From Saprospiraceae bacterium (GTDB lineage: Bacteria > Bacteroidota > Bacteroidia > Chitinophagales > Saprospiraceae), in contig JBGSKO010000116.1 in assembly GCA_041741155.1 (NCBI GenBank), positions 29,103-93,102 of the forward strand: DNA of 64,000 bases. Reading direction: 5' to 3'. The notes under the pieces are model-generated. The model searched no databases and was not told where the DNA came from. It worked only from the letters and a program-made list of their open reading frames with translations. Below are positions 2,592 to 46,964 of this stretch, one piece after another; the stretch's first letter is position 1; each line of letters begins with the position of its first letter. The position numbers and the translations under genes were made by a program.

Positions 2592-3034
2592 GACCTCGGT
2601 ACCGCTGAGCCTAAGCAGCGCATAGTTTCCATGCTCTACGTTTGTCATCCTGAAGGGAACTGTCCGCTCTACGGTCGAAACTGCGGGGTTTGCCATACGT
2701 AGAGCGGACAGTTCCCTTCGGGATGACAAACGTAGCGTACCCAAAATATGGGGATTGTTCAGAATATGCGAAGGGCGTGCTCGGCGGTATCGGGGTTCAC
2801 GAATGTACCATTATTTCCATGCTATAAACATATAGCCCTTTTACCGCCGAGCCTCGGCTCTGCATACAGTGCTATTGGTCAGACGACCTTCGGTCGTACA
2901 GACCAATGTGTCCTGCGGTCTGTACGACCGAAGGTCGTCTGACCGCTTTCCCTTTTTATGCGCAACCAATGCTCGGCGGTATCAGGGCTTGGCTTGAGAA
3001 TTATAAGTAATCAACGCTCGCCGGTACCGAGGTC
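2592..3034. repeat. nested modular palindromic intergenic element (REP/MITE-like)
   Basis: Outer inverted repeat 2592-2610 / 3016-3034 (17/19). Two internal units share TACCGCYGAGC-type arms (2600-2624 with 2765-2791; 2842-2866 with 2957-2983). Their cores differ: a 38-bp stem at 2636-2673/2698-2735 and a 28-bp perfect stem at 2877-2904/2917-2944. Confidence 0.7.
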
Positions 3035-3044
3035 ATTTGTACCC

Positions 3045-5456
3045 TCATAACCGCACCTTCATCAACTTCGCCAGCCGCTCGAAAACGGCCTTCCACTCGT
3101 CGTTCCAGAACTCCCAAAGTTCTTTCCGGTGCCCTTTCGTGACCAGGTAGAAAATATTTTGGCTGCGCCAGATATCGGGCACAAGCTGCATTTCCTGCAT
3201 GATTTCCAGCACGTCGGCCAGCCATTGCAAACGAGACAGCGAGGAGGTATCCTGCTGGATCTGTTTGATTTCCCGGTGGATGCGCTGGCCGGCGGCGTGG
3301 CGCACAGCTTCTTCGTCGGCGAGTTTGACTTTCCAGCTTTTCAGGTCGTCGGCTACACGGCGCAGGATCTGGATGTTGGGCGTTTGGCCGTTTCTGAAAA
3401 AATGCAGCAAGTCGTCGTTCAGCACGTATGAGGCGATGTTGCGCCAGGTATCGGGCAGGGGCAGGCCGGCTTCCTGGAGGCCGGTCATGAGCTGGTAGTT
3501 GTCGTTGAAAACGTTGCGAAAATTAGCCTCCGCGAGCAGCAGGCTGTTGGCGGTAATGGCGCGGATGATCTTGATTTTTTCGTCGGCAAAGAGTGTAGCC
3601 AGGGTGAACTTGTGCGGCCCGAAGTGCTCCTGCTGGATGCCGATGACCTCGCCGAGGTTGGCTTTTCGGAATGCGTCGGCTACGCGCAGGTGCACCTCGT
3701 CGTAGGTGGTGCGGTTCAACGTACCGCTGATGTTGCCGATGATGTGCTGCTGGCCGAGGTACAGCGCCGAAAAACTGTACGTATGCTCGGCATGCGTGAG
3801 GCGCGAGCGGATGCGCAGGCGGCCGATCGCGAGGCGCGGAGTGCCGGCCTCGATGCGCTCGAATGCTTCTACTTTGACGGTATAGTTGAACAGATCAAGT
3901 TGTGCCGGGTCGTCTTCGAACAGCGAGGCTACGGCAAAATGGGCCGCTACGCGCTCGAGGTCCACGCGGGCGGGCAGCACGTTTTGCAGGTAGCTGGCGG
4001 CGCCGTCGGCGTACTTGTTGCTGGGCGCGCTGCGCAGGCGTTTCTCAAATCCCGCGTGCAGCTCCAGTCCGCAGGAGTCCTGGGCATGGTCCATGGAGCG
4101 CAGGGCATACTGGAGAATCTGGTTGGTTTCGATGCCCGATATTTCATCGAAAAACCAGCCGCAACTGGTGTACATGAGTACGGCGTAGCGCTGCATTTCG
4201 AGCAGGCGCAGGGCGGTCACTTCTTCGAGTTTGCTGAGTTCGCGGCGGGCGTGTTTCTCAAAAAACGCGCGCACAGCCTCGTCGGAGCGGTTCAGCATGG
4301 CCTCGATGTAGTCGTTTCGAGCTTTCCAGGCGTCTTTGAAAAACCGGCCGGCCTCTTTTTCGTACGCGGGGGCGAGTTGGTCGCGCAGCCAGTCGAGCGC
4401 TGCGCGCAGGGGTTTGCGCCAGCGCTGATGCCAGCCGGGATTGCCGCCGGTGTTGCACCCGCAGTCGCTGCGCCAGCGCTCCACTCCGTGCACGCAGCTC
4501 CAGGAGGAGTCTTCGTGGATTTGCACTTCGTATTCCGGCGGAAACAGTTCGAGAAACTGGCCGTAATTGGTCAGGGTTGCGAGGTTGTTGTCCTCAATAT
4601 GGGTGAGGGCGGAAGCGAGGGCCATTTCGCCGAAGCGGTGGTGGTGGCCGTAGCTCTCGCCGTCGGTGGCGATGTGGGCGAGTTGGGGGGCGTCGGAGTC
4701 GTCGAGGATGCGGAGCAGGCGCTCGGCGAACAGCTGCCCGTTGTTGAGCAGGCCGTTGAAGGCAACCTCCTGCGCCAGTCTGCCGTGGTAAAAATACAGG
4801 GCAATGCGGCGTCCGCTGGGCAGCTGGCACCAGTACGGGTGGCGGGTATCTATGGAATCGGCGTCCACCGGTTTCCATGCGGTGTCGCCCGTTTTGCGCA
4901 CGGCCGCAGCCTGTCGGGGCGCCAGCACGGTGTACTGGAGGCCGTGTGCGGCCAGCACTTCGAGGGTTTCGGTATTTACGGCCGTTTCTGCCAGCCAGAT
5001 GCCCTCCGGGTAGCGGCCGAACCGGTGTTCAAAATCGCGCACCCCCCAATAGACCTGGGTTACTTTGTCGCGGTAATTGGCCAGCGGCAGGATGAGGTGG
5101 CTGTGCACTTGTGCCAGCGCGTTGCCGTGGCCGCCGTAGCGTTCCCGGCTGCGGTGGTCGGCCTGAATGACCAGCTCGTACGCTTCCGGGTCGTTGACCT
5201 CCAGCCAGGTAAGCAGGGTGGGGCCGAGGTTGTAGGAAATGCGGTTGTAGTTGTTTTTGATCTTGATGATCCAGCCTTCCCGATCGAGGATGCGGGCCGC
5301 CGCATTGGGGGCGTAGCATTCGAAGTTGATGCGCTCGTTCCAGTCGTGGTAGGGGCGGGCGCCCTCTTGTTGTTCCACTACTTCCAGCCAGGCGTTTTCG
5401 CGTGGAGGCTGGTAAAAGTGGCCGTGGACGCAGACGTATTTTTTCTTGTCGGACAT
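3045..5456 (-). CDS. glycoside hydrolase family 57 protein (alpha-glucan-active, with DUF3536-type C-terminal extension)
   Basis: 803-aa ORF. The N-terminal YVCVHGHFYQPPRENAW and HDWNERINFECYAPNA blocks are characteristic of GH57 enzymes. Confidence 0.9.
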   Translation of the reverse strand: MSDKKKYVCVHGHFYQPPRENAWLEVVEQQEGARPYHDWNERINFECYAPNAAARILDREGWIIKIKNNYNRISYNLGPTLLTWLEVNDPEAYELVIQADHRSRERYGGHGNALAQVHSHLILPLANYRDKVTQVYWGVRDFEHRFGRYPEGIWLAETAVNTETLEVLAAHGLQYTVLAPRQAAAVRKTGDTAWKPVDADSIDTRHPYWCQLPSGRRIALYFYHGRLAQEVAFNGLLNNGQLFAERLLRILDDSDAPQLAHIATDGESYGHHHRFGEMALASALTHIEDNNLATLTNYGQFLELFPPEYEVQIHEDSSWSCVHGVERWRSDCGCNTGGNPGWHQRWRKPLRAALDWLRDQLAPAYEKEAGRFFKDAWKARNDYIEAMLNRSDEAVRAFFEKHARRELSKLEEVTALRLLEMQRYAVLMYTSCGWFFDEISGIETNQILQYALRSMDHAQDSCGLELHAGFEKRLRSAPSNKYADGAASYLQNVLPARVDLERVAAHFAVASLFEDDPAQLDLFNYTVKVEAFERIEAGTPRLAIGRLRIRSRLTHAEHTYSFSALYLGQQHIIGNISGTLNRTTYDEVHLRVADAFRKANLGEVIGIQQEHFGPHKFTLATLFADEKIKIIRAITANSLLLAEANFRNVFNDNYQLMTGLQEAGLPLPDTWRNIASYVLNDDLLHFFRNGQTPNIQILRRVADDLKSWKVKLADEEAVRHAAGQRIHREIKQIQQDTSSLSRLQWLADVLEIMQEMQLVPDIWRSQNIFYLVTKGHRKELWEFWNDEWKAVFERLAKLMKVRL

Positions 5457-5601: not shown

Positions 5602-6003
5602 CTAAATATCGCGCCATGCCGTTACGGTGTAGTGCGAGCGTAATTGACTTTCCGCGCCGCCATAGATGAGCGTTTTGGAATGCACGTTTGCTCCGGCGAT
5701 ATTGGCAAAGTAGTCAAGCCCTTTAAAATGATTGGGCAGCACGGTTTCTGTAGATTTTATTTCAAGGATATCAAGCACGGCTCCCCGTTGTTGGAGCAGG
5801 TCAATTTCGTTGCCGTTGGAGTCGCGCCAGAACCAGTACTCCCGGAGTTGGTATTGGTGAAAATTTTGTTTGAAGAGTTCGGCGACGATAAGGTTCTCAA
5901 ACAGGCTGCCCGCAAGTGTCGGGTTGTCTAATTCTTGAACTTGTCGAATACCGAGTAAGAAGCAGACCAGAAACTTTGAAATTACATGATTGTTTTTTTG
6001 AAA
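5602..6003 (-). pseudogene. remnant (C-terminal part only) of an AAA-ATPase with a DUF4143 domain
   Basis: Hand translation of the minus strand gives ...GIRQVQELDNPTLAGSLFENLIVAELFKQNFHQYQLREYWFWRDSNGNEIDLLQQRGAVLDILEIKSTETVLPNHFKGLDYFANIAGANVHSKTLIYGGAESQLRSHYTVTAWRDI*. This has the layout of the C-terminus of ~390-aa DUF4143 ATPases. There is no ATG, no Walker region, and a stop lies just upstream (6004-6006). It is absent from the ORF track because it lacks a start codon. Confidence 0.6.
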
Positions 6004-6031
6004 TTACATAAATAATTTTTTGGAATTGCAT
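5975..6031. repeat. three phased 22-bp direct repeats (TTTGRAATTRCAT core)
   Basis: Cores lie at 5975-5987, 5997-6009 and 6019-6031 with exactly 22-bp spacing. The stretch is AT-rich and sits where the missing 5' part of the ATPase relic should be. Confidence 0.6.
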
Positions 6032-6074
6032 AAAAATGACTGTGTTGGGTTTCTGCACATCCTAAGCTAACCCA

Positions 6075-11149: not shown

Positions 11150-11172
11150 GCACGTTTATGCGGAGCAAAAAA

Positions 11173-11216
11173 GCAAAAGGCAAAAAGCAAGGAGATCCTC
11201 ACTTTTTGCCTTTTGC
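11173..11216. terminator. bidirectional stem-loop between convergent genes
   Basis: GCAAAAGGCAAAAAG (11173-11187) pairs perfectly with CTTTTTGCCTTTTGC (11202-11216). A/T runs lie on both sides. Confidence 0.6.
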
Positions 11217-14783: not shown

Positions 14784-15120
14784 TGTACAGAGAGTAATGA
14801 TTTAGTTAGAAAAACACGGAAAAGTCAACACAGTATTTTTGAGAAAGCGGCCAAAGGTAGTGCGTCCGGGCATTTGACAAGTAGTACCTTCGGGAAAATG
14901 CCCACGGTGGCAAAAGTTGGCGGGGCTGGATTCCTGGGATTTACATAGTTTATCGAGTTTAAAAGAGTCCGTGTAGCGGGCGCTATTCCTGTCTATCCAG
15001 TGAATTTTTACCGGGTGTACGCATTTTTTGTCGGCGTGCCGGTGCGCGGCGGAAGAAAAAACAAGACATTAGAGGCTTGTTTTAATAGAAGCAGCAGCAG
15101 CAATGGATATTTCCGGAACG

Positions 15121-15153
15121 AGACCTTCCAGGTTTGACAAACCTGGAAGGTCT
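15121..15153. repeat. 33-nt palindrome, copy 1 of a REP-like element
   Basis: AGACCTTCCAGGTTTGACAAACCTGGAAGGTCT. The same palindrome, with a single central difference, recurs with similar flanks at 26526-26558. Confidence 0.7.
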
Positions 15154-15219
15154 GGATACCCTGAAAACAAAATGTCCATTAGTTTGACAAAAGGCAACCG
15201 TTCACACTCTTAATTTTTA

Positions 15220-17892: not shown

Positions 17893-18101
17893 GGCTTTTC
17901 GGGAGTGTTTAGAGAACTGTGTCAAACCTACCGAGAGATATTTTTTAACACAGACAAACGCAGACTGCTGCGCAGACAAAAACAGAGTGTAACTTATTTA
18001 AAATCAAATCTCTGTGTTTGTCTGCGCAGCAGTCTGCGTTTGTCTGTGTTAAATTTGCTCTCAACGGGCTGACACAGTTCTCTGAACACTCCCGGCTTTT
18101 C
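17893..18101. mobile_element. MITE-like non-autonomous element (193 bp) with 24-bp terminal inverted repeats and an 8-bp target-site duplication
   Basis: TIRs are GGGAGTGTTTAGAGAACTGTGTCA (17901-17924) and TGACACAGTTCTCTGAACACTCCC (18070-18093), 23/24. Both ends are flanked by the direct repeat GGCTTTTC (17893-17900 and 18094-18101). Internal 43-bp arms at 17945-17987 / 18010-18052 have 1 mismatch. No coding capacity. Confidence 0.65.
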
Positions 18102-23195: not shown

Positions 23196-23228
23196 CGGGA
23201 TAGTGGTACTTTTGCGGCCTAAAGATCA

Positions 23229-23783
23229 ATGCTTATGCAGAAATTATTGGTTTTGTGTGGATTTTTTCTCCTGTTCCACGCCGCCCTGCCGGGGCAAGCA
23301 GCCGACACGCTGGTATTCCCTGCATCCTGGGCAGGCACCTGGCAGGGAACCCTGGATATTTTCAACGGCGGCGGTAAAGTGCAGTCTGTGCCCATGTGGG
23401 TCGAAATCCAAAAAATAGACACCTCCACCACGGGGCGCTACACGTTTGGACTGGTTTATGGCTCCAAACAGCAGGACTGGCGGCCCTACGAACTGGTACC
23501 CGTGGAACCGCAATACGGCCTTTGGAAGGTGGACGAGAAAAACGGCATCGCCATGGAAAGCTACCTGTTCGGCCCCAAACTGCTGTGCTGGTTCACCGTA
23601 GAGACCAGCCGCGTCCTTTGCACCTACGAGAAACGCGGCGATGAAATGATCTTTGAGGTTTACTCGGGTATGGAGTCCGCGATCAGTACCACCGGCAATG
23701 GCACCCACAATGGAGAATCCATCCCGGAAGTGAAAACATTCCCGTTCAGTGTATTCCAGCGGGCGGTGTTGAAGCGGGGTTGA
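23229..23783 (+). CDS. secreted hypothetical protein
   Basis: 184-aa ORF with signal peptide MLMQKLLVLCGFFLLFHAALPGQA. The stop codon lies inside the first GTTGAG repeat. Confidence 0.6.
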   Translation: MLMQKLLVLCGFFLLFHAALPGQAADTLVFPASWAGTWQGTLDIFNGGGKVQSVPMWVEIQKIDTSTTGRYTFGLVYGSKQQDWRPYELVPVEPQYGLWKVDEKNGIAMESYLFGPKLLCWFTVETSRVLCTYEKRGDEMIFEVYSGMESAISTTGNGTHNGESIPEVKTFPFSVFQRAVLKRG

Positions 23784-24221
23784 GGGGAGTTGAGATAGTT
23801 GAGGGGGTTGAGATGGTTGAGGGGGTTGAGGGGAGTTGAGTAGGTTGAGAGGAGTTGAGGAGATTGAGAGGCGTTGAGGAGATTGAGCGTTAGATGCCGT
23901 TTGGGGCCTTGTTTTGGTTTAAAATTATTTGATAATCAAGCGGTTGGCGCGGGGTCAAAAGACCCACGCGCGGCGTTTCAGGGATAATCTCAACTCATCA
24001 ACGCCGCGCTTGGTGTTTTCACCAAGTGCACACCATGATGCACACGAAACTGTTTGGGCGTGGTAAAACACCAAGCACGTTTCAAAATATTTGACAATCA
24101 AGCGGTTGGCGCGGGGTCAAAAAGTTGGACGACAGTCGCCCAATTTCTCTCAACGCTCAACCCTCTCAACCCCCTCAACCATCTCAACCACTCTCAACCA
24201 CTCTCAACCATCCCTCAACCC
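23779..24221. repeat. GTTGAG/CTCAAC word-array inverted repeat filling an intergenic region
   Basis: There are 12 TTGAG words at 9-10 nt spacing (23779-23888) and 8 CTCAAC words (24149-24221). A 25-bp perfect complement exists between 23806-23830 and 24165-24189. The centre holds a ~40-nt direct repeat (23921-23961, 24083-24124) and small hairpins. Confidence 0.75.
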
Positions 24222-24230
24222 AACAAAAAA

Positions 24231-24545
24231 ATGCTCCTCTACAACGTCACTGTTACAATAGACCTCGATGTACACGAGGACTGGCTGCGCTGGATGCGCG
24301 AAACGCACATCCCCGATGTCATGGCTACCGGCATGTTCCGCTCTTACCGCATGAGCCGGATGATCGGCCACGAGCACGAAGACTCGGAAATTTACTCCAT
24401 GCAATACCTCGTGGAGGACATGGAACACCTGCGCCGCTACATGGACACGTTCGCGCCCGAACTGCAACGCCAACACCAGCAGCGGTACGAAGGCAAGTAC
24501 GCCGCGTTTCGGACGGTGATGGAAGTCGTGGGCGAGGGACAATAG
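24231..24545 (+). CDS. DUF4286-family protein
   Basis: The start is taken at MLLYNVTVTIDLDVHEDWLRWMRETHIPDVM, the characteristic DUF4286 N-terminus. The longer track ORF from 24054 runs through the repeat array. Confidence 0.7.
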   Translation: MLLYNVTVTIDLDVHEDWLRWMRETHIPDVMATGMFRSYRMSRMIGHEHEDSEIYSMQYLVEDMEHLRRYMDTFAPELQRQHQQRYEGKYAAFRTVMEVVGEGQ

Positions 24546-24616
24546 AAATCCGGGTATTGCCGGATACCGGGGCGATTGGCAGACGGGGAAGGCGCAGATT
24601 TTGCGACCTTTGCGCC

Positions 24617-26485
24617 ATGAATTTCCTTACGCTCGAAAACGTCACCAAGTCTTACGGCGAAAAACTGCTGTTTCGCAACATTACCCTGCACATAGACAAG
24701 GGCCAGAAAATCGGCCTCATCGCCAAAAACGGCACGGGCAAAACGACCCTCATGCGGGTCATCGCCGGGCGCGAAGGCTCCGAAGGCGAAAACGCCAAAA
24801 TCATCCTGCGCAAGGGCATCCGCATCGGCTGGCTCGATCAGGAGCCGGAGTTTAACCCCGAAATGGACGTGCTCGGCGCAGTGCTCGACCCCGGCAACCC
24901 GCTCGTGCAAGTCGTGCAACGCTACGAACACGCCCTCGCCCACCCCGAAAACACGTCCGACCTGCAAGACGCCATCGGCGAAATGGACCAGCTCAACGCC
25001 TGGTCGTTCGAGGCCAAAGTAAAAGAAACGCTGTTCCGGTTCCGCATGGAGGATTTCGAACAAAAGGTAAAAAACCTCTCCGGCGGCCAGCAAAAGCGCC
25101 TCGCTCTGGTGAAAATCCTGCTCGAAGAACCCGATTTCCTCATCCTCGACGAGCCGACCAACCACCTGGATGTCGAGATGATCGAATGGCTGGAGGAGTA
25201 TCTCCAGCAGCCGGGCATCACGCTGTTCATGGTCACGCACGACCGGTATTTCCTCGAAAACGTGTGCGACAGCATCATCGAACTTGAAGGCGGCCAACTA
25301 CGCCGCTACTCCGGCTCGTATTCGGATTATTTAGAAAAAAAGGCCATGCGCGAGGAGGTGGAATCCACGACCTACGAGCGCCAGAACAAACTGCTCAAAA
25401 ACGAGCTCGACTGGGTGCGCCGAAGTCCGCAGGCGCGTACCACCAAGGCGAAAGCCCGTGTGGACGCTTATTTTGACCGCAAGGAAACCAACGACGCGCT
25501 GAAAAAGAAGACGGACGAAATGACCATCGCCATCAAGGAAAACTGGATGGGCAGCAAGGTGGTGGAGCTGCACAACATCAGCAAGTCCTTCGGCGACAAA
25601 AAAATCCTGGACAATTTTTCCTACAAATTCAAACGCCGCGAGCGAGTGGGCATCGTCGGGCCAAACGGCTCCGGCAAATCCACTTTCCTGCAAATGATCA
25701 CCGGCCTGCTGCCACCCGACACCGGCAAGGTGGTCATTGGCGACACGATCCTGTTCGGCCACTACCGGCAGGAAGGCATCCAGCTTAAGGAAGACAAGCG
25801 GGTGATTGATGCCATTCGCGACATAGCCGACTACATCCCCCTCGAAAAAGGCAAGGAACTCAGTGCCGCGCAATTGCTGGAGCGTTTTCTGTTCAGCCGC
25901 CCGCAGCAGCAGGTGTACGTTAGCCAGCTCAGCGGGGGCGAGCGCCGCCGCCTCTACCTGCTCACGGTTTTGATGAAAAACCCCAACTTCCTCATCCTCG
26001 ACGAGCCGACGAACGACCTGGACGTACTCACCTTGCAGGTGCTGGAAGATTTTCTCGAAGACTACCCCGGCTGTCTCGTCGTGGTCACGCACGACCGATA
26101 TTTTATGGACCGCCTGGTGGACCACCTTTTTGTATTCGAAGGGGAGGGAAAAATCAAGGATTTCAACGGCACCTATGCCGAGTACCGCGCCGGCAAACGC
26201 AGCGGAAACCTTCCTGCGGCAACAACCGCTACGGGAGGGGGAGAAGTCGCCCAGCGCCCGCCGGCGCCCGCGCCCCGGCTGACGGGCGCCGAGCGCAACG
26301 AGATAAAAAAATTAGAAAAGGACATGGCCACGCTCGAGCGGCGAAAAAAGGAGATTCTGGAGCGTTTCAACGCCACCGACCTCGGTGCCGATGAAGCGGG
26401 CAAGCTGTCCACAGAACTGGGAAAAGTGCAGGGCGATCTGGACGAAAAGGAGATGCGCTGGCTGCAGTTGTCCGAGTTGACGTAA
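24617..26485 (+). CDS. ABC-F family ATPase (Uup/EttA-like, no membrane domain)
   Basis: The start is taken at MNFLTLENVTKSYG. It has two cassettes with Walker A GLIAKNGTGKTT and GIVGPNGSGKST and signatures LSGGQQKRLAL and LSGGERRRLYL. The tail is a C-terminal coiled coil. Confidence 0.9.
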   Translation: MNFLTLENVTKSYGEKLLFRNITLHIDKGQKIGLIAKNGTGKTTLMRVIAGREGSEGENAKIILRKGIRIGWLDQEPEFNPEMDVLGAVLDPGNPLVQVVQRYEHALAHPENTSDLQDAIGEMDQLNAWSFEAKVKETLFRFRMEDFEQKVKNLSGGQQKRLALVKILLEEPDFLILDEPTNHLDVEMIEWLEEYLQQPGITLFMVTHDRYFLENVCDSIIELEGGQLRRYSGSYSDYLEKKAMREEVESTTYERQNKLLKNELDWVRRSPQARTTKAKARVDAYFDRKETNDALKKKTDEMTIAIKENWMGSKVVELHNISKSFGDKKILDNFSYKFKRRERVGIVGPNGSGKSTFLQMITGLLPPDTGKVVIGDTILFGHYRQEGIQLKEDKRVIDAIRDIADYIPLEKGKELSAAQLLERFLFSRPQQQVYVSQLSGGERRRLYLLTVLMKNPNFLILDEPTNDLDVLTLQVLEDFLEDYPGCLVVVTHDRYFMDRLVDHLFVFEGEGKIKDFNGTYAEYRAGKRSGNLPAATTATGGGEVAQRPPAPAPRLTGAERNEIKKLEKDMATLERRKKEILERFNATDLGADEAGKLSTELGKVQGDLDEKEMRWLQLSELT

Positions 26486-26525
26486 AGGGTATCGCGACCG
26501 CACTAATGGTTGCTTTCGGAACGCG

Positions 26526-26558
26526 AGACCTTCCAGGTTTGTCAAACCTGGAAGGTCT
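26526..26558. repeat. 33-nt palindrome, copy 2 of the REP-like element
   Basis: AGACCTTCCAGGTTTGTCAAACCTGGAAGGTCT. The flanks CGGAACG(CG) and GGAT..AAAACAA..ATG.CC are shared with the copy at 15121-15153. Confidence 0.7.
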
Positions 26559-26620
26559 GGATGACCAAAAACAACGATGCCCAGTAGTGTGTATCGCGAC
26601 GAGTACGGCCGTTGCGCACC

Positions 26621-26665
26621 AAAAAGAAGGAGGCTCACAGACATGCTGTGAGCCTCCTTCTTTTT
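26621..26665. terminator. bidirectional rho-independent terminator
   Basis: Perfect 20-bp stem: AAAAAGAAGGAGGCTCACAG (26621-26640) with CTGTGAGCCTCCTTCTTTTT (26646-26665). It lies between the convergent ABC-F and mltA genes. Confidence 0.75.
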
Positions 26666-26681
26666 GGGTGTATCTGGCAGT

Positions 26682-30031: not shown

Positions 30032-30080
30032 ACAAAACTGACCTCTCGGGTTTTGAAAACCAGAAAGGTCAATTTCGATA

Positions 30081-30128
30081 AAAAAACAGGCGTCATCCCC
30101 GCAACTCCGGGATGACGCCTGTTTTTTT
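30081..30128. terminator. bidirectional rho-independent terminator
   Basis: CAGGCGTCATCCC (30087-30099) pairs with GGGATGACGCCTG (30109-30121). An A-run precedes it and a T-run follows. It lies between convergent genes. Confidence 0.75.
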
Positions 30129-30150
30129 ATGCGTTTTTGGCAACTGTAGG

Positions 30151-31299: not shown

Positions 31300-31491
31300 A
31301 GTCTGCTGCTGTTTTTTTGAAAATAAAGGCGCCATTAACCCACAAAACCATGCCGAAATGGCCGAATCATCAACCATAACGAACAACCAAATATTTATGG
31401 ATGCTGCGCAACACCTCAATAAACGCCCTGTATCCCCTTTTATGTCCTCATTTTCGATGAAAAACAGGCGTATCAGATCAAAGGGAATGTT

Positions 31492-31640
31492 GGAGGGTTA
31501 GAAGGTTTCTGGTTAGAAGGTTAGAAGGTTTCTGGTTGGAAGGTTTCTGGTTAAAGGTTAGAGGGTCCCTGGTTGGAGTAACCAGAAACCCTCTAACCAG
31601 AAACCTTCTAACCTTCCAACCCTCCTAACCAGAAACCCTG
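31492..31640. repeat. word-array inverted repeat (GGTTAGAAGG / GGTTTCTGGTT words and their complements)
   Basis: The left half consists of degenerate tandem words and the right half holds their reverse complements. The apex hairpin is CTGGTT-GGAGT-AACCAG (31569-31585). GGTTAGAGGGT (31556-31566) pairs with ACCCTCTAACC (31588-98). The array ends 5 nt from the gcdH stop. Confidence 0.7.
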
Positions 31641-31644
31641 AAAA

Positions 31645-32865
31645 CTATTTGTATGCCTCCAGGCCGGTTACGTCGTGGCCGGTAATGAGGAGGTGAATAT
31701 CGTGTGTGCCTTCGTAGGTGAGCACCGTTTCGAGGTTCATCAAATGGCGCATGACGGGATACTCATTGGTGATACCCATGCCGCCGTGTATTTGCCGGGC
31801 TTCGCGCGCGATTTCAAGCGCCATGTGGACGTTGTTCCGTTTAGCCATGGATACCTGGGCGGAAGTCATCGTGCCTGCGTTGGCCAGCGTGCCAAGGCGC
31901 CAGGTAAGTAATTGGGCTTTGGTGATCTCGGTGATCATTTCGGCCAGTTTTTTCTGTGTGAGCTGGAAAGCGCCAATGGGCTTGCCAAACTGAATGCGCT
32001 CTTTGGAATAGCGCAGGGCGGAGTCGTAACAATCCAGCGCTGCACCAATGGCGCCCCAAGCGATACCGTATCGAGCCTTCGTAAGGCAGGTCAGCGGGCC
32101 GCGCATACCCACCACACCAGGCAGGACATTGGCCTTCGGGACACGTACGTCCTCAAACACCAGTTCTCCGGTGATACTGGCGCGAAGTGACCATTTGCCG
32201 TGAATTTCCGGCGCTGAAAAGCCTTTCATTCCTTTTTCCACGATCATGCCCAGCACTTTACCATCTTCGCGTTTGGCCCAAACCACGGCAATATCGGCTA
32301 CGGGAGAATTCGTGATCCACATTTTGGCGCCGTTGAGGATGTAGGCATCGCCGTCGTCCTTCACATTGGTCACCATACCGCTGGGATTGGAGCCGTGGTC
32401 AGGTTCGGTGAGACCAAAACAGCCAATCAGTTCGCCTGCGGCGAGTTTGGGCAGGTAGCGGCGGCGATGCTCCTCCGAGCCGAATTTGTAAATAGGGTAC
32501 ATCACCAGGGATCACTGCACGGAGGCCATGGAGCGCACCCCGGAGTCGCCGCGTTCAAGTTCCTGCATGATGATACCATAAGCAATCTCGTCCATGCCGC
32601 CACAGCCGTATTCGGCAGGCAAAGATGGACCAAATGCACCTATTTCGGCCAAACCCTTGAACAGATGCGTAGGGCATTCAGCGCGGTTGGAGTAGTCTTC
32701 GATGATGGGGCTTACCTCTGCTTTTACCCATTCCCGAACGGCATCGCGGGCGAGCAAGTGCTCGGGAGCGAGCAGTTCATCCATGCCATAATAATCATGG
32801 TGTTGGTAGCGGTCTTCACGGGCAGTGCGGGGCTTGTGGGCAGTATCAGAACCGTTGGATTGCAT
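31645..32865 (-). pseudogene. gcdH: glutaryl-CoA dehydrogenase (acyl-CoA dehydrogenase family) interrupted by a single in-frame TGA
   Basis: Track ORFs 32512..32865 and 31645..32505 share one frame. The joined sequence reads ...[53 protein letters not shown]. Intact homologues, as I remember them (e.g. human GCDH), read SVQSSLVM at this position. Total length is 407 codons. Confidence 0.85.
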
Positions 32866-42428: not shown

Positions 42429-42529
42429 ACATTGAAGTTTACAGGGTTTTGGGGTTTATGAATGTTGAGCCTGTATTGCTCAACACCCATAAACCCCTTG
42501 AACCATTTTGAAATAGTAATTACGTACGC

Positions 42530-43257: not shown

Positions 43258-44322
43258 ATGCATTTACCGCGTCGAAATACCTGGTTACAAATTCTATTCT
43301 GGGGTGCCCTGTGGGTACTGGTGCCGGTGGCCCTCGCCGGCAACTGGGAAAACACCGAGCGGCTCGTCGTGCGGAGCGCCGTAGTGCTCACAGGCATCGC
43401 CCTCGTCGTGTGGGCTAATGTGGAAATTTTGCTCCCCAGACTTTATTTTAACAAAAAACAGGTCGCTTACATCCTGGCGGGACTGGCGCTTCTGGTGGGC
43501 ATTGTTTTGCTGGTGGACTGGGATGCGGCGCCCTGGGCCGAACATTTTACCCGGCCACGCACCAATGACAGTACCGGCCGCGGCGGCAATCCACATAACA
43601 ATCCGGGGTACCGCAGCATGAAATATATCGGTATGGCCATGCCTTATTTCACGGCATTGATCGGTAGCGCCCTGTTTGAAGTGGCCAGTTTTGCCAACCG
43701 CAAGGAGCGCGAGGCCACGGAGTTTCGCAGCGAAAAACTGGAGGCTGAACTAAAGTTTCTCAAATCCCAAATCAACCCGCACTTCCTGTTCAACGCCCTG
43801 AACAACATTTATACCCTGACGGTCATCAAGTCTGATCAGGCGCCCGACAACCTGCTCAAACTATCCGGTATGCTGCGCTATATGTTGTACGACTGCAAAG
43901 CCGACCGTGTACCACTGGGCAAAGAAATTGAATACTTGCGGCACTTCATTGATCTGAACCTGCTCAAAGACAGCCGGGGACTCAATGTGACGGTAAGCCT
44001 TGATGAATCGCGGCCGGCGCTGTCCATCGCTCCAATGCTTCTGATTCCTTTCGTGGAAAACGCATTCAAACACAGCAAAATTGAGGATCGCGCACACGGC
44101 TGGATCCGCATCGAATTGCAAACTGCCGCCGGTCATATTCAATTTACTGTGGAAAACAGCGTGCCAGAAACCGCCCACACCAAGGACCAATCCGGCGGCA
44201 TCGGCCTGAAAAACGTGCGCCGCCAACTCGAACTCCTCTACCCCGACCAACACGAACTAACCATTGAACCCGGACCAGATACTTTCCGCGTCCGACTGAA
44301 ATTGTTGGTTGAGAACGGTTGA
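43258..44322 (+). CDS. LytS/YehU-type sensor histidine kinase
   Basis: N-terminal membrane helices. The QINPHFLFNALNNIY block is the His_kinase (PF06580-type) H-box. A C-terminal ATPase-like GGIGLKNV block is present. Confidence 0.85.
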   Translation: MHLPRRNTWLQILFWGALWVLVPVALAGNWENTERLVVRSAVVLTGIALVVWANVEILLPRLYFNKKQVAYILAGLALLVGIVLLVDWDAAPWAEHFTRPRTNDSTGRGGNPHNNPGYRSMKYIGMAMPYFTALIGSALFEVASFANRKEREATEFRSEKLEAELKFLKSQINPHFLFNALNNIYTLTVIKSDQAPDNLLKLSGMLRYMLYDCKADRVPLGKEIEYLRHFIDLNLLKDSRGLNVTVSLDESRPALSIAPMLLIPFVENAFKHSKIEDRAHGWIRIELQTAAGHIQFTVENSVPETAHTKDQSGGIGLKNVRRQLELLYPDQHELTIEPGPDTFRVRLKLLVENG

Positions 44323-44468
44323 GAAAAGTTGAGAGGGTTGAGACGGTTGAGTTGAGAGCCCGGCTGCTGCTTAAGACTGTTCAGAAAGCTCTGAACTTTC
44401 CCAACATCCCTCCTCAACCCTCTCAACTTTTCTCAACCTTTCTCAACTTTTCTCAACCTTTCTCAACC
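44308..44468. repeat. GTTGAG/CTCAAC word-array hairpin between the kinase and regulator genes
   Basis: Six GTTGAG words lie at 44308-44356 and six CTCAAC words at 44413-44467. A 25-bp perfect complement links 44318-44342 and 44413-44437, extending to about 35 bp with 1 mismatch. The array starts inside the HK stop codon region and ends 9 nt before the RR ATG. Confidence 0.8.
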
Positions 44469-45190: not shown

Positions 45191-45254
45191 AAACCAAAGC
45201 ACTAAAACACAAAACCCCAAAGCCCCAAAGCCCCATAACACGCACAAACGATGC

Positions 45255-46964
45255 ATGATGAATAGATTTTTCTACCCGATTTTCGCACTTCTTTTCCTGC
45301 TGCCGCTCGTTTCTTTTGCTCAGGACCGCATCACGGGCCGGCCATGGGCTACCCGCAGCGAGGTAATTGCCCAAAACGGCATGGCCTGTACCAGCCACCC
45401 GCTCGCCACTCAGGTTGCCCTCGATATTTTGAAAAAAGGCGGCTCGGCCATTGATGCAGCCATCGCAGCCAATGCCTGCCTCGGCCTAATGGAACCCACC
45501 GGCAGCGGTATCGGCGGCGACCTGTTCGCAATCGTGTGGGATGCCAAATCCCAAAAATTGTACGGCCTGAACGCCAGCGGGCGCAGTCCCAAGGCGCTCA
45601 CCCGCGCGTACTTTTTAGAAAAAGGCCTGACGAGCATCCCGTCCTACGGTCCGTTGCCCGTGACGGTACCCGGCTGCGTGGACGGGTGGTTCGAACTGCA
45701 CCGTCGGTTTGGCAAATTAGGAATGGGCGAAATCCTCCAGCCCGCCATTGGATATGCCGAGCAGGGATTTCCCGTAACCGAACTCATCGCCTACTACCTG
45801 CAAGCCAGTACCCGCCGCTTTGCGGAATATCAGAATTTCACGGAAACGTATACCCTTCAGGGCAAAGCCCTCGAAAAGGGTAGTATTTTTAAAAACCCCG
45901 CCCTGGCCAAGACGTACCGCCTGTTGGCTGAAAAAGGCCGTGATGAATTTTACAAGGGCAGTATTGCCCGCACCATCGCCACATTTATGCAGGAACAGGG
46001 CGGTTTTCTGGCGCTCAACGATCTCGCCGAACACCGCAGCGAGTGGGTGGACCCTGTCAGCGTCAATTACCGCGGATACGATGTGTGGGAACTGCCGCCC
46101 AACGGCCAGGGCATCGCCGCCCTGCAAATGTTGAATATCCTCGAAGGTTTTGATTTCAAACCGGAAGACTACGGCACGGCGCGACACATTCACCTGTTTT
46201 CTGAAGCCAAAAAACTGGTTTTTGAGGACCGGGCCAGGTACTATGCCGACCCTGCGTTTTCCAAAACGCCCGTGCAGGAACTGCTCAGTAAGGAATACGC
46301 CGCCCGACGCAGGGCACTGATCAATCCCGACCGGGCCGGCACCCGTGTAGCCGCCGGCGACCCGTTCGCCAACAACACGATTTACATGACCGTAGCCGAC
46401 CGGGAAGGCAATATGGTCAGCCTCATTCAGAGCAACTACCGGGGTATGGGCAGCGGTATGGTGCCGACCGGGTTAGGTTTTATGCTGCACGACCGGGGCG
46501 AGTTGTTCAGTTTGGATACTGCGCACGCTAATGTTTTTGCTCCCGGCAAACGCCCGTTCCACACCATCATTCCGGCGTTTATTACCAAAGACGGGCAGCC
46601 ATTCCTCAGTTTTGGCGTCATGGGCGGCGATTTTCAGCCGCTCGGCCACGTCCAGATTGTCCAGAACATCATTGATTTTCAGATGAACATCCAGGAGGCC
46701 GGCGATGCTCCGCGCATAGATCACCAGGGCGGCAACAGCGACCCCACCGGCGCGGCCACCGGCGGCAGTACCGGCGGCGGCCAAATCCTGCTCGAAAGCG
46801 GCATTCCTTACGAAACCATCCGCGAGCTCCTGCAAAAAGGCCACCGGGTTGGCTACGGACTCGGCGGCTATGGCGGCTATCAGGCTATCCGTTGGGATCC
46901 CGTGCGGAAGGTATATTTCGGCGCCAGCGAAAGCCGAAAGGATGGCGGAGCGGCAGGTTTTTGA
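45255..46964 (+). CDS. ggt: gamma-glutamyltransferase
   Basis: Signal peptide. GGSAIDAA and PTGSGIGGD blocks. The autoprocessing/nucleophile region is NNTIYMTVADREGN. An MGGDFQP block is present. Confidence 0.9.
   Translation: MMNRFFYPIFALLFLLPLVSFAQDRITGRPWATRSEVIAQNGMACTSHPLATQVALDILKKGGSAIDAAIAANACLGLMEPTGSGIGGDLFAIVWDAKSQKLYGLNASGRSPKALTRAYFLEKGLTSIPSYGPLPVTVPGCVDGWFELHRRFGKLGMGEILQPAIGYAEQGFPVTELIAYYLQASTRRFAEYQNFTETYTLQGKALEKGSIFKNPALAKTYRLLAEKGRDEFYKGSIARTIATFMQEQGGFLALNDLAEHRSEWVDPVSVNYRGYDVWELPPNGQGIAALQMLNILEGFDFKPEDYGTARHIHLFSEAKKLVFEDRARYYADPAFSKTPVQELLSKEYAARRRALINPDRAGTRVAAGDPFANNTIYMTVADREGNMVSLIQSNYRGMGSGMVPTGLGFMLHDRGELFSLDTAHANVFAPGKRPFHTIIPAFITKDGQPFLSFGVMGGDFQPLGHVQIVQNIIDFQMNIQEAGDAPRIDHQGGNSDPTGAATGGSTGGGQILLESGIPYETIRELLQKGHRVGYGLGGYGGYQAIRWDPVRKVYFGASESRKDGGAAGF

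What the first reader, a model, noticed from the sequence alone, without database searches (positions are those of the whole stretch)
23779..24221. GTTGAG word array and its complement bracket a 440-bp structured spacer running from a stop codon to a start codon
Twelve TTGAG words at 9-10 nt spacing begin inside the stop codon of the upstream gene (the TGA at 23781-23783 is part of GGTTGAGG). Eight CTCAAC words end 10 nt before the DUF4286 ATG. The two arrays are complementary, including a 25-bp perfect match between 23806-23830 and 24165-24189. If transcribed, the RNA would fold so that the stop and the next start lie at the base of one long stem.

The 260-nt interior is also organised:
- A ~40-nt direct repeat AAAAT(T)ATTTGAYAATCAAGCGGTTGGCGCGGGGTCAAAAG lies at 23921-23961 and 24083-24124.
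- A 10-bp stem GCGCGGCGTT/AACGCCGCGC lies at 23968-23977 / 24000-24009.
- The segment CTTGGTG (24009-24015) can pair with CACCAAG (24020-24026) or with the downstream ACACCAAG (24069-24076). This is an alternative-pairing arrangement like an attenuator.

The same word-array architecture recurs at 44308-44468. I know of no described element class with this design.
Basis: partly seen in the sequence, partly recalled or inferred. Interest (0 to 1): 0.6.

Follow-up and report, generated by a model that had tools for sequence, protein, structure and literature searches.

The report
Hypervariable intergenic foldback word-array repeat
The GTTGAG/CTCAAC arrays are real, but they are one fast-changing copy of a hairpin-forming repeat family that fills gaps between genes in Saprospiraceae bacteria, not a conserved switch for the neighbouring genes.

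Summary
Observation confirmed: 12 TTGAG words (23780-23887) start in the stop codon of a conserved 184-aa gene, 8 CTCAAC words (24149-24219) end 11 nt before the DUF4286 ATG, and the arms pair (RNA MFE -240 kcal/mol, z -14.8).

The attenuator reading is not supported. A strain with an identical DUF4286 protein has only the CTCAAC leader. The closest genome has other words after the 184-aa gene and a different downstream gene. The 260-nt interior consists largely of fragments of a second, multi-copy palindromic repeat. Rfam gives nothing.

The architecture is a lineage trait. Saprospiraceae-like loci hold 27-47 inverted word-array pairs per Mb. Other Bacteroidota loci hold none in 752 kb. The G-rich, C-free arm nearly always comes first, so it lies next to stop codons and the G-free arm next to start codons.

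At the window's second copy (kinase/regulator junction), a near-identical strain carries a different word family at the same site. Sense and antisense folds are equally stable (15 vs 16), so complementarity looks DNA-made.

Best reading: a dispersed, hypervariable foldback repeat, REP/MITE-like, tolerated because the hairpin loops out of the mRNA. No published description was found. Its way of spreading is unknown.

The parts
23229..23783 (+). Conserved hypothetical gene (184 aa). Its stop codon TGA (23781-23783) is supplied by the first GGTTGAG word.
   Evidence: The ORF list gives the ORF. It has 276 homologues, nearly all about 180 aa and from Saprospiraceae. The same GGGGTTGAGG stop word is present in the closest genome, L363.
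23776..23887 (+). 5' arm: 12 (N3-4)TTGAG words with a 9-10 nt period. It has 59 G and 1 C and carries stop codons in shifting frames.
   Evidence: Contig depth here is about 10 times that of the flanks in the source metagenome.
23888..24148 (+). Interior (loop). It is a mosaic and is not conserved as a unit.
   Evidence: Alignment A2. Positions 23917-23995 are orthologous to the L363 spacer, and 23996-24148 has no counterpart in either L363 or L081.
23917..23995 (+). Fragment 1 of a dispersed palindromic repeat (AAAATTATTTGATAATCAAGCGGTTGGCGCGGGGTCAAAAGACCCACGCGCGGCGTTTCAGGG...). It contains the local hairpin GCGCGGGGTC-AAAA-GACCCaCGCGC.
   Evidence: The 27-mer has 7 exact hits in 3 related MAGs, where it sits inside a roughly 175-nt nested palindromic unit. 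Depth is 41-87 against about 6 on the flanks in runs X1-X3 (9.3 in X4).
24079..24124 (+). Fragment 2 of the same dispersed repeat, truncated after GGGGTCAAAA.
   Evidence: the repeat finder family D2, 93% identity. Depth is 60-92 in X1 and 14-23 in X3; X2 shows little or no excess.
23964..24079 (+). Local stems 23964-23977/24000-24013 and 24005-24019/24065-24079, plus the small hairpin 24009-24026.
   Evidence: There is no conservation in relatives.
24149..24220 (+). 3' arm: 8 CTCAAC words with 38 C and 1 G, so almost free of start codons. It is orthologous to the stand-alone 5' leader array of DUF4286 in strain L081.
   Evidence: Homology to L081 starts at 24174 at 97% identity. In L081 and L014 a TACTTTTG box lies upstream of the array, directly abutting it in L081. 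A 32-nt stretch (24158-24189) is identical to the leader of another gene.
24231..24545 (+). DUF4286 gene.
   Evidence: Pfam PF14114, E 9e-36.
24617..26485 (+). ABC-F ATPase gene.
   Evidence: Pfam ABC_tran x2, ABC_tran_Xtn and ABC_tran_CTD. The start codon was read.
44307..44468 (+). Second copy. GTTGAG x6 (44307-44356) and CTCAAC x6 (44413-44468) lie between the LytS-type histidine kinase (its stop at 44320-44322 is in word 2) and the LytTR response regulator (ATG 44477).
   Evidence: A different word family sits at the same site in strains L287 and L288. An independent 3230-nt contig matches with no differences.
31485..31639 (.). Third copy, built from other words (GGTTAGAAGGTTTCT / AACCAGAAACCTTCT). 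It lies 5 nt from the stop of the minus-strand acyl-CoA dehydrogenase gene and about 185 nt upstream of the OmpA-family gene start (31299).
45210..45235 (+). Single G-poor array, CAAAGCCC x3, just before the ATG at 45255. It shows in-situ unit expansion.
   Evidence: TRF. Strains L287 and L288 have a single copy.

Best explanation
**What it is.** Window 23776-24220 is one composite copy of a lineage-specific family of dispersed, hypervariable intergenic foldback repeats found in Saprospiraceae, Lewinellaceae and Haliscomenobacter.
- Each element is a pair of inverted arms built from tandem 7-10-nt words. Here the words are GGTTGAG-type; elsewhere they are GGTTAGA/GGTTTCT and others.
- The arms surround a variable centre. 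In this copy the centre has trapped fragments of a second dispersed palindromic repeat.

**Shown.**
- The family is multi-copy and enriched in this lineage.
- Its members sit against gene ends.
- There is a polarity rule. The C-free, stop-codon-rich arm is always the 5' arm, so it abuts stop codons. The G-free arm, which therefore has no start codons, abuts start codons.
- Copies turn over between near-identical strains, by unit-number change and by replacement of whole word sets at the same site.
- This particular locus is a recent mosaic. It joins the 3' flank of the 184-aa gene to the leader array of DUF4286.

**Inferred: how it arises.** The arms are made and kept complementary by DNA-level processes, not by selection on an RNA fold. 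These would be replication slippage within arrays, plus copying of one arm from the other (template switching in a quasi-palindrome) and/or ectopic conversion between copies.

**Inferred: why it persists.** The elements persist because they are nearly harmless.
- In a transcript the arms zip up and loop the insert out, so the upstream stop and the downstream start stay side by side as in the ancestral compact junction.
- The G-first order avoids read-through tails, upstream start codons and an exposed C-rich Rho-loading stretch.

**Likely side effects.** Effects on mRNA are probably generic by-products. Candidates are a 3' exonuclease barrier, an RNase III substrate, and ribosome stalling at a stop codon buried in a stem, as described for REP elements. 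I do not read the element as a dedicated switch for DUF4286/ABC-F.
For: **The family is real and lineage-specific.**
- Among loci not chosen for arrays, Saprospiraceae-like DNA holds 12 inverted array pairs in 435 kb. Other Bacteroidota loci hold 0 in 752 kb.
- A genome-collection scan for three spaced GTTGAG words gave eight loci with matches on both strands. All eight were in Saprospiraceae or Chitinophagales MAGs, and all had GTTGAG first.
- Ten or so copies from several genera share a conserved core hairpin, GGCTACCGCGAGCGA...TCGCTCGCGGTAGCC, between the arrays.
- Contig depth on the arrays and on the interior repeat is up to about 10 times flank depth in the source metagenome runs, highest in X1.

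**Polarity.** The 5' arm has more G than C in 11 of 13 unbiased pairs and in about 40 of 46 overall.

**Position.**
- By crude gene calls, 31 elements lie between co-directional genes, 7 between convergent genes and 3 between divergent genes.
- Arrays mostly lie within about 12 nt of a stop codon.

**Turnover.**
- L287 and L288 have a 100% identical response regulator and identical flanks, but carry GGTTAGAAGGTTTCT words where the window has GTTGAG.
- L081 has a 100% identical DUF4286 protein but lacks the 5' arm and the interior.
- L363, the closest genome, has other words after the 184-aa gene, then a YdjM-family gene.
- CAAAGCCC is present three times in the window and once in L287.

**An insertion, not an ancestral spacer.** In relatives the kinase stop and regulator start overlap or abut. 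In L364 and L365 the next gene abuts the 184-aa gene.

**Complementarity looks DNA-level.**
- Sense versus antisense MFE is 15 against 16 across 31 elements, Wilcoxon p 0.73.
- Arms of one element match each other better than arms of other elements do, 0.73 against 0.63, p 0.003.
- The 5' arm is an exact inverted copy of a unit order that is specific to the window and not shared with L081.

**No known-family or enzyme signal.**
- No Rfam family matches.
- No Bacteroidetes -7 box (TAnnTTTG) lies anywhere in 23700-24300, and the boxes are not enriched in loops.
- No transposase, integrase or RAYT was found among 38 window ORFs.

**Probably transcribed.** Metatranscriptome contigs cover 23864-24056, 23954-24158 and 23965-24192.
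Against: - No mechanism of spread was demonstrated. I found no clean empty site, no target-site duplication and no associated enzyme.
- Arm-to-arm templating is inferred from patterns, not observed.
- The same 15-nt compound word recurs at unrelated loci and in different species. That fits a mobile element or a selected word at least as well as in-situ evolution.
- A first, cruder count gave G.U 53 against A.C 33 in the sense strand. This would hint at RNA-level selection, but it did not hold in the fold-based test.
- Gene contexts rest on crude ORF calls.
- RNA evidence is only assembled contigs that may include DNA. No 5' or 3' ends could be mapped.
- Linkage of the two arms at this locus depends on assembly through repeats.
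Confidence: 0.55

Rival explanations
1. It is a true non-autonomous transposable element, a bacterial foldback or MITE-type element. Its terminal inverted repeats are arrays of transposase-binding words. An enzyme encoded elsewhere in the genome mobilises it, and it prefers to insert at gene ends or into the loops of existing hairpins.
For: - The family is dispersed and multi-copy, with words and a core hairpin shared across genera.
- A 32-nt stretch is identical at two loci.
- Palindromes are nested within palindromes (window 23776-24220; L201 and L206; window 17900-18094).
- A different family member sits at exactly the same site in near-identical strains.
- The element is an insertion into an otherwise compact operon junction.
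Against: - No target-site duplication or conserved termini were seen in 12 copies inspected.
- Flanks often simply extend the palindrome.
- Copies are not collinear: spacer order differs in every copy.
- No transposase is present in the window.
- Single arrays grow in situ.
Confidence: 0.2
2. It is a selected RNA device. The long intercistronic stem is kept because it does something useful. Options are coupling translation of neighbouring cistrons by bringing stop and start together, shielding a C-rich Rho-loading site, acting as an RNase III processing site that frees a G-less leader, or stabilising the upstream mRNA.
For: - The folds are very stable: z -14.8, -10.5 and -10.3.
- The stop codon lies inside the 5' arm base, and the start codon lies 9-11 nt past the 3' arm base at two window loci.
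- The polarity rule makes sense for translation and for Rho.
- G-poor word arrays also stand alone as 5' leaders upstream of start codons, with a promoter-like box in front of them in L081, L014 and a second locus. This parallels the TAACTGA arrays of PMC4679880.
- The elements appear in metatranscriptome assemblies.
Against: - There is no conservation at orthologous loci.
- Seven of 41 elements lie between convergent genes, where no start codon is involved.
- The third window copy lies about 185 nt from the next start.
- Stability shows no sense-strand bias.
- The closest relative's version of this very locus has non-complementary arms.
Confidence: 0.17
3. It is a locus-specific attenuator or riboswitch-like leader. 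It would control DUF4286/ABC-F through the alternative pairings in the interior.
For: Alternative stems exist at 24005-24019, pairing either with 24020-24026 or with 24065-24079.
Against: - The segment is absent from L363, L081 and L014 and from the other DUF4286 loci examined. In the 80 genome loci no GTTGAG/CTCAAC pair lies upstream of the gene.
- No + strand terminator was found.
- No Rfam match was found.
- The interior is made of dispersed-repeat fragments.
Confidence: 0.03
4. It is an assembly chimera. The 184-aa gene flank and the DUF4286 leader would have been joined wrongly through shared CTCAAC/GTTGAG words, so the two arms would not bracket one spacer in any real molecule.
For: - Synteny breaks exactly inside the arrays when compared with L081, L014 and L363.
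- The joining k-mers are multi-copy and branch.
Against: - Unitigs from three independent runs tile the whole path. One covers the unique interior through to 24210 (X3).
- RNA-run contigs from other samples span 23864-24192.
- The same architecture is spanned cleanly at 44307-44468 and occurs in long-read MAGs.
Confidence: 0.05

Closest known systems
REP / BIME / REPIN elements of Proteobacteria (PMC3733652, PMC3116915)
   Same: - Both are high-copy extragenic palindromes placed after stop codons, between co-directional or convergent genes, and rare between divergent genes.
- Both are transcribed as part of mRNAs.
- Both form mosaics with other repeats.
- From my own knowledge, REP elements act as 3' exonuclease barriers. 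They also stall ribosomes when they lie within about 15 nt of a stop codon.
   Different: - REPs are 20-40-nt units with a fixed sequence and a GTAG or CGTC tag, and are tied to RAYT transposases.
- Here the arms are 30-140 nt of tandem words with variable spacers.
- No tag was found in the window copies.
- No RAYT was seen.
- Turnover between strains is far faster.
Bacterial MITEs, e.g. BrickBuilt of Porphyromonas gingivalis (PMC4596501); Correia/NEMIS, RUP, ERIC (own knowledge)
   Same: - Both are short, non-coding, dispersed and intergenic, with inverted ends.
- BrickBuilt is a Bacteroidota element that contains a tandem minisatellite.
   Different: - BrickBuilt has direct 23-nt repeats between small inverted ends.
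- Here the tandem repeats are themselves the inverted arms.
- No target duplication and no parent IS were found.
Foldback (FB) transposons of Drosophila and other eukaryotes (own knowledge; context in PMC3169594)
   Same: - Both have long terminal inverted repeats composed of short tandem subrepeats.
- Arm length varies from copy to copy.
- The middle domain is variable or absent.
- Both are associated with rearrangement breakpoints.
   Different: - FB elements are eukaryotic and kilobase-scale, with 9-bp target duplications and a known transposase lineage.
- No homology is implied.
Intergenic heptamer / long simple-sequence repeat arrays: TAACTGA repeats of Beggiatoaceae, cyanobacteria and some Bacteroidetes (PMC4679880); cyanobacterial STRR (own knowledge)
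   Same: - Both are tandem 7-10-nt words.
- Both are mostly intergenic, in forward orientation and ending a few nucleotides before start codons.
- The words contain stop codons, so arrays can end the upstream ORF.
- Distribution is patchy across lineages.
- Arrays are absent from orthologous spacers of relatives.
   Different: - Those arrays are direct only. Just one inverted case was found among 170 sets.
- Here about a quarter of the arrays come as complementary inverted pairs that form long hairpins.
Quasi-palindrome template-switch mutagenesis in E. coli (own knowledge: Ripley; Lovett and co-workers)
   Same: It is a known DNA-level process that copies one arm of an imperfect palindrome onto the other. 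That could explain arms that mirror each other's spacer order without any RNA-level selection.
   Different: - It is known from point and short-patch mutations in single reporter loci.
- It is not known as a generator of a genome-wide repeat family.
Integron attC sites
   Same: - Both are variable-sequence palindromes lying between the stop of one gene and the start of the next.
- GTTGAGC fits the attC core site GTTRRRY, and GCTCAAC fits the inverse core RYYYAAC.
   Different: - The order is reversed: attC reads RYYYAAC...GTTRRRY, while here GTTGAG comes first.
- The words are tandemly repeated.
- Other word families do not fit the core.
- The neighbouring genes are ordinary housekeeping genes in mixed orientations.
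- No integrase was found.

Membership tests
REP/BIME (REPIN) | Short (20-40 nt) imperfect palindrome of conserved sequence with a GTAG or CGTC tetranucleotide at its 5' foot | tested here: not met
   The window arms are 72-112 nt of tandem words with no GTAG or CGTC tag. The related core-bearing copies have CTAC...GTAG inside the stem, which is the opposite placement.
REP/BIME (REPIN) | High-copy and extragenic, preferentially after gene 3' ends, and rare between divergent genes | tested here: met
   27-47 pairs per Mb. Contexts are 31 co-directional, 7 convergent and 3 divergent, by crude gene calls.
REP/BIME (REPIN) | Cognate RAYT (Y1 transposase) gene flanked by the repeats | not testable with these tools
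   None of the 38 window ORFs scanned is a RAYT. The whole genome was not available.
MITE | Defined terminal inverted repeats with conserved termini | tested here: inconclusive
   Inverted arms are present, but the ends are fuzzy. The flanks often extend the palindrome, and the first and last words differ among copies.
MITE | Target-site duplication flanking each copy | tested here: not met
   No consistent direct repeat was seen at the borders of 12 copies. One possible ATAT was seen in L123.
MITE | Presence/absence polymorphism with a clean empty site | tested here: inconclusive
   I saw replacement by another family member at the same site and the absence of one arm together with a synteny break. 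I saw no clean empty site.
MITE | Parent autonomous element with the same ends | not testable with these tools
There is no transposase in the window.
Foldback-type element (architecture only) | Inverted arms composed of tandem subrepeats, with variable arm length and a variable or absent middle | tested here: met
   Arms range from 27 to 172 nt and centres from 4 to 476 nt.
Direct heptamer/LSSR arrays (TAACTGA type) | Tandem direct repeats of one 5-11-nt unit, intergenic, in forward orientation just upstream of start codons | tested here: met
   This holds for the 3' arm (24149-24220, ending 11 nt before the ATG), for 45210-45235, and for the L005, L014 and L081 leaders.
Direct heptamer/LSSR arrays (TAACTGA type) | Arrays occur singly, without a complementary partner array | tested here: not met
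   Three of three main window arrays are inverted pairs, as are 46, later 50, in the fetched loci.
Attenuator / riboswitch leader | Structure conserved at orthologous loci with compensatory changes | tested here: not met
   The element is absent or different upstream of DUF4286 in the 80 genome loci examined in detail (metagenome loci only scanned with TRF), and in L081 and L363.
Attenuator / riboswitch leader | Terminator/antiterminator alternative with a U-tract, or a known aptamer | tested here: not met
   No + strand terminator-like site lies in 23200-24700. No Rfam match was found at E<=5 other than chance hits to miRNA and viral models.
Integron attC | 5'-RYYYAAC ... GTTRRRY-3' order relative to the cassette gene, single copy of each, intI nearby | tested here: not met
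   The order is GTTGAG...CTCAAC, the words are tandem, and no integrase is present in the window.
Intrinsic terminator | GC-rich stem directly followed by a U-run | tested here: not met
   The 3' arm is followed by CCAACAAAAAAATG at this locus and by ATAACACAATG at the 44307-44468 copy. The elements also sit inside an operon junction.

The most novel reading that the evidence does not exclude
Saprospiraceae genomes may carry a previously undescribed class of interspersed repeat. Each genome would hold on the order of a hundred or more foldback elements whose arms are arrays of short words.

Three features would define the class:
- An active DNA-level process keeps the arms complementary, through arm-to-arm copying and exchange between copies.
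- The elements obey a strict polarity. The C-free, stop-rich arm lies next to stop codons. The G-free arm, which lacks start codons, lies next to start codons.
- They are swapped at the same site between near-identical strains and mark rearrangement breakpoints.

This would be either a new kind of bacterial mobile element or a new mutational mechanism that builds hairpins out of minisatellites.
Probability: 0.35. Interest if true: 0.7.

Novelty: new variant of a known kind. Interest (0 to 1): 0.52.

Why it matters
**If the family is what it appears to be.**
- It adds a distinct architecture to the short list of bacterial interspersed repeats (REP, MITE, BOX, ERIC, Correia): hairpins whose arms are minisatellites.
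- It comes from a phylum where such elements are little studied.
- The strict arm polarity offers a natural experiment on what an insertion between two cistrons must look like to be tolerated in bacteria that do not use Shine-Dalgarno sites.
- Strain-level replacement at fixed sites, and the synteny break inside this very element, suggest the repeats drive micro-rearrangements.
- The repeats break short-read assemblies of these abundant wastewater and hot-spring bacteria.

**For annotation.** These spacers should not be read as gene-specific regulatory RNAs.

Tried and rejected
**Checks that found nothing.**
- Rfam at gathering and E-value thresholds found nothing on the window, on the locus or on 8 related loci.
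- No tRNA or tmRNA was found.
- BLAST of the interior against the plasmid and phage collections gave no match.
- The sigma-70 promoter and terminator scan found no + strand sites.
- The Bacteroidetes -7 box TAnnTTTG is not enriched in loops, and none lies in 23700-24300. This rejected the idea that a promoter sits in the loop so that only read-through transcripts form the hairpin.
- A Pfam scan of 38 window ORFs for a transposase, RAYT or integrase found none.

**Ideas tested and dropped.**
- Orthologous conservation of the element upstream of DUF4286 was rejected using 80 genome loci and 73 metagenome loci.
- G.U against A.C counting on local arm alignments suggested a sense-strand bias, 53 against 33. 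Whole-element folds of both strands did not confirm it, 15 against 16, p 0.73, so I dropped it.
- attC membership was rejected because the order of the core sites is reversed.
- REP membership was rejected because there is no GTAG or CGTC tag.

**Attempts that failed or gave no new information.**
- Strain variants of the 31485 element: the only contig found breaks inside the array.
- The response-regulator search found no close orthologue; the best was 65% identical.
- The metatranscriptome runs do not cover the kinase/regulator genes of this organism.
- Literature searches found no description of inverted paired word arrays in bacteria.
Full report
**1. The observation**

- Twelve TTGAG words, ten of them GTTGAG, start at 23780-23883 with spacings of 9-10 nt.
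- The first word contains the TGA (23781-23783) that ends ORF 23229-23783.
- Eight CTCAAC words start at 24149-24214. The DUF4286 ATG is at 24231, 11 nt after the last word.
- The 5' arm has 59 G and 1 C. The 3' arm has 38 C and 1 G.
- The arms are complementary: 28 nt at 96%, and 49 nt at 86%.
- As RNA, 23765-24235 folds to -240 kcal/mol, z -14.8.
- The interior direct repeat and the local stems are all present.
- GTTGAG occurs 61 times in the window against 27 expected, with 0 of 100 shuffles reaching 61.
- The element at 44307-44468 has the same design.
- A third copy at 31485-31639 is built from different words, GGTTAGAAGGTTTCT.

**2. The organism and the neighbours**

The window comes from a Saprospiraceae/Lewinellaceae bacterium (Bacteroidota). 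The closest public genome is the MAG JADJYW, and the sequence is best represented in hot-spring metagenomes.
- The upstream ORF is a real, conserved 184-aa hypothetical protein with 276 homologues.
- Downstream lie DUF4286 and an ABC-F ATPase.
- The rest of the window is ordinary chromosome. It encodes T9SS-sorted proteases, TonB receptors, transporters and similar genes, with no transposase, integrase or RAYT.

**3. Not a conserved leader**

None of the DUF4286 loci examined in other genomes carries a GTTGAG/CTCAAC pair upstream of the gene (80 genome loci; the 73 metagenome loci, best 86% identical, were only scanned for arrays).

*Strain L081* is the most telling comparison.
- Its DUF4286 protein is identical, and its DNA is 97% identical from window position 24174 onwards.
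- It has only a CTCAAC array of five or six words, directly preceded by a Bacteroidetes -7-like box, TACTTTTG. So the array is the 5' UTR there.
- Its upstream gene is different.
- L014, at 96% protein identity, has the same promoter-like box and an AAACTCA array instead.

*The closest genome, L363*, shows the other half.
- The 184-aa gene ends in the same GGGGTTGAGG stop word.
- It is followed by GGTTTCT/GGTTAGA/GGTTGGA words.
- Next comes an interior homologous to window 23917-23995, then two CTCAAC words, an A-run and the ATG of a YdjM-family gene.

*More distant relatives* have the next gene abutting the 184-aa gene with no array.

Alignment A2 therefore shows the window locus as a mosaic.
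- The left part, up to about 23995, comes from the 184-aa gene's own 3' spacer.
- The right part, from about 24174, comes from the DUF4286 leader.
- The segment 23996-24173 is unique. It contains the proposed attenuator-like pairings.

No + strand terminator-like site, -7 box or Rfam match supports a regulatory leader.

**4. The interior is made of another repeat**

Contig depth in the source metagenome is about 6 on the genes. In runs X1-X3 it reaches 40-87 on the 5' start of the arrays and on 23929-23978, and 14-92 on 24079-24128 in X1 and X3.

The 27-mer AATCAAGCGGTTGGCGCGGGGTCAAAA has seven exact hits in three related MAGs. There it is part of a nested palindromic unit of about 175 nt, with outer arms GGGAGTGTTCAGAAAACTGTGTCA / TGACACAGTTTTTTGAACACTCCC. 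In two of the seven hits (L201, L206) that unit sits between G-rich and complementary C-rich word arrays, as it does here; a third (L205) has word arrays on both sides that do not pair. The same outer arms occur in the window at 17900-18094.

**5. A lineage-wide family**

*Frequency.* TRF plus arm alignment on all fetched DNA found 46 inverted array pairs, later 50.
- In loci that were not chosen for arrays, Saprospiraceae-like DNA has 166-233 short-period arrays per Mb and 27-47 inverted pairs per Mb.
- That is 12 pairs in 435 kb.
- Other Bacteroidota loci have no pairs in 752 kb.

It returned eight loci with matches on both strands. All eight were in Saprospiraceae or Chitinophagales MAGs, and all had GTTGAG first.

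*Shared core.* Many copies from several genera share a conserved central hairpin, GGCTACCGCGAGCGA-loop-TCGCTCGCGGTAGCC, between GGTTGAG/GGTTTAG arrays and CCTCAACC/CCTAAACC arrays. The same core is seen in the source metagenome next to CTCAAC words.

*Size range.* Arms range from 27 to 172 nt and centres from 4 to 476 nt.

**6. Polarity and position**

The 5' arm is G-rich and C-poor in 11 of 13 unbiased pairs and in about 40 of 46 overall.

An inverted repeat reads the same on both strands. So this polarity means that every gene 3' end facing an element meets the C-free arm, which is rich in TGA and TAG. Every gene 5' end facing an element meets the G-free arm, which cannot contain ATG, GTG or TTG.

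With crude gene calls, 31 elements lie between co-directional genes, 7 between convergent genes and 3 between divergent genes. The arrays usually lie within about 12 nt of a stop codon and often supply it. This is the distribution known for REP elements.

**7. Turnover**

*The kinase/regulator junction.* Strains L287 and L288 have an identical regulator protein and identical flanks. They carry a GGTTAGAAGGTTTCT / CCAGAAACCTTCTAACC foldback where the window has GTTGAG/CTCAAC.
- Only ttggttga...tctcaaccataacac is shared.
- The kinase tail changes from ..LLVENG* to ..LLVEKVAG*.
- L289 and a 3230-nt contig of run X1 confirm the window allele.
- In relatives the kinase stop and the regulator start overlap or abut, so the element is an insertion into an operon junction.

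*In-situ expansion.* Just downstream, CAAAGCCC is present three times in the window and once in L287.

**8. DNA or RNA?**

- If the pairing were kept by selection on the mRNA, G.U pairs should favour the sense strand. A first count hinted at this, 53 against 33.
- Folding both strands of 31 co-directional elements gave 15 against 16, p 0.73. There is no strand signal.
- Arms of one element match each other better than arms of other elements do, 0.73 against 0.63, p 0.003.
- In L092 the inner 55 nt of the arms mirror each other exactly, spacers included.
- In the window, the 5' arm is an exact inverted copy of a unit order (CCCC, CAT) that differs from the leader of strain L081. So the complementarity is younger than the split between these strains.
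- A 32-nt stretch of the 3' arm is identical to the leader of another gene, which has its own TACTTTTG box.

These patterns point to DNA-level copying, both between the arms and between copies.

**9. Transcription**

Metatranscriptome assemblies from four runs contain contigs covering 23472-23784, 23864-24056 (one mismatch), 23954-24158 and 23965-24192. They also contain other word-array elements.

These are assembled contigs that may include DNA. No raw reads were available, so ends could not be mapped. With no promoter box anywhere in 23700-24300, DUF4286 in this genome is most simply co-transcribed through the element.

**10. Interpretation**

The finding is a member of a dispersed, hypervariable family of foldback repeats with word-array arms.

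The best-supported account has two parts.
- DNA-level origin and maintenance: slippage, arm-to-arm templating and exchange between copies.
- Persistence by harmlessness: the hairpin loops the insert out of the mRNA, the first arm ends the upstream ORF at once, and the second arm offers a leader free of G and of start codons.

Generic effects on mRNA are likely, as with REP elements, but they were not shown.

The main rivals are a true transposable foldback or MITE element, and a selected generic RNA device. The locus-specific attenuator is contradicted by the comparative data. A small risk remains that this particular junction is an assembly artefact.

**11. Comparison with known elements, and novelty**

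The closest known elements or processes are:
- REP/BIME/REPIN;
- bacterial MITEs, including BrickBuilt of P. gingivalis;
- the architecture of eukaryotic Foldback elements;
- the direct TAACTGA and STRR heptamer arrays (PMC4679880), which share placement in front of start codons and patchy distribution across lineages but are not paired;
- quasi-palindrome template switching.

The defining features of REP (tag, RAYT), MITE (target duplication, parent IS), attC (site order) and attenuators (conservation, terminator) were either not met or not testable.

Five literature searches found no description of this design. I rate it a new variant of a known kind, namely bacterial interspersed palindromic repeats, with moderate interest.

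Noticed in passing
window 17900-18094: Nested palindromic MITE-like unit. Its outer 25-nt arms are CGGGAGTGTTTAGAGAACTGTGTCA / TGACACAGTTCTCTGAACACTCCCG. The same outer arms flank the AATCAAGCGGTTGG... units in L200-L206. They enclose a 44-nt, 98% complementary hairpin (17944-18053) built of CAGAC words.
   Followed up: partly
window 15117-15160 and 26524-26565; L014 5284-5368: Another dispersed palindrome, GAGACCTTCCAGGTTTGNCAAACCTGGAAGGTCTGGAT. It is present twice in the window and once in the closest genome.
   Followed up: no
window 2621-2989: One 470-nt spacer holds three long palindromes: 2621-2750 (53-nt arms), and 2834-2989, which encloses a perfect 28-bp stem at 2877-2944.
   Followed up: no
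window 45210-45235: The G-poor array CAAAGCCC x3 lies directly before the ATG (45255) of a gamma-glutamyltranspeptidase gene. Near-identical strains L287 and L288 have one copy, so this is an in-situ expansion.
   Followed up: yes
window 32512-32514 (minus strand): The acyl-CoA dehydrogenase gene (about 31645-32784, minus strand) has an in-frame TGA (..SVQ*SLVMYPI..). It could be a pseudogene, a sequencing error or recoding; this was not resolved.
   Followed up: no
runs X1/X2, contigs overlapping window 24158-24189: A second gene in the source community has a TACTTTTG promoter-like box, then 32 nt identical to the DUF4286 3' arm, then GTCAAAAC and ATGACCATC... So CTCAAC-word leaders serve more than one gene.
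   Followed up: partly
window 11168-11216 and 42451-42497: Two smaller hairpins have the same flavour: GCAAAAG-word arms at the first site, and GGGGTTTATGAATGTTGAGC / GCTCAACACCCATAAACCCC, G-rich arm first, at the second.
   Followed up: no
window 26619-26667 and 30078-30130: Two perfect 22-bp stems are flanked by A and T runs. They look like bidirectional intrinsic terminators, so this genome does have conventional terminators distinct from the word-array elements.
   Followed up: no
L201 (about 3915-4114): A 16-nt direct repeat, AAAACCACCGGCCCTT, lies on both sides of the MITE-like unit that sits between the word arrays. It may be a target duplication or part of that unit.
   Followed up: no
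L092 6755-7061; L155 2680-3414: These are very large versions. L092 has arms of 137 and 120 nt (GGTTGATGA / TATCAACCC). L155 has arms of 172 and 87 nt (GGGTTGAGC/GGGTTTAAC) around a 476-nt centre.
   Followed up: no
L115 6391-6662 (Ignavibacteria MAG); L100 3158-3828 (deltaproteobacterial MAG): Long 9-nt word arrays (AGTTCGTTG x19; GGTTGAGCC with GACCCAACA x20) occur outside Bacteroidota. The phenomenon, or something like it, is therefore not confined to Saprospiraceae.
   Followed up: no
L006, L009, L020, L026, L030, L036, L298-L300, at about 3308 (2308 in L298-L300): In many Saprospiraceae the DUF4286 ORF runs into a C-free array, ATGAAGTG / ATGAACG / GTGATGG, with up to about 200 nt of array (TRF counts 13.7 copies of a 15-nt compound unit in L036). 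The array replaces the native C-terminal residues and supplies the stop codon, without an obvious complementary partner.
   Followed up: partly
window 5975-6034: An AT-rich 22-nt tandem repeat, TTTGAAATTACATAAATAATTT x2.7, lies in a spacer. It is unlike the word arrays.
   Followed up: no
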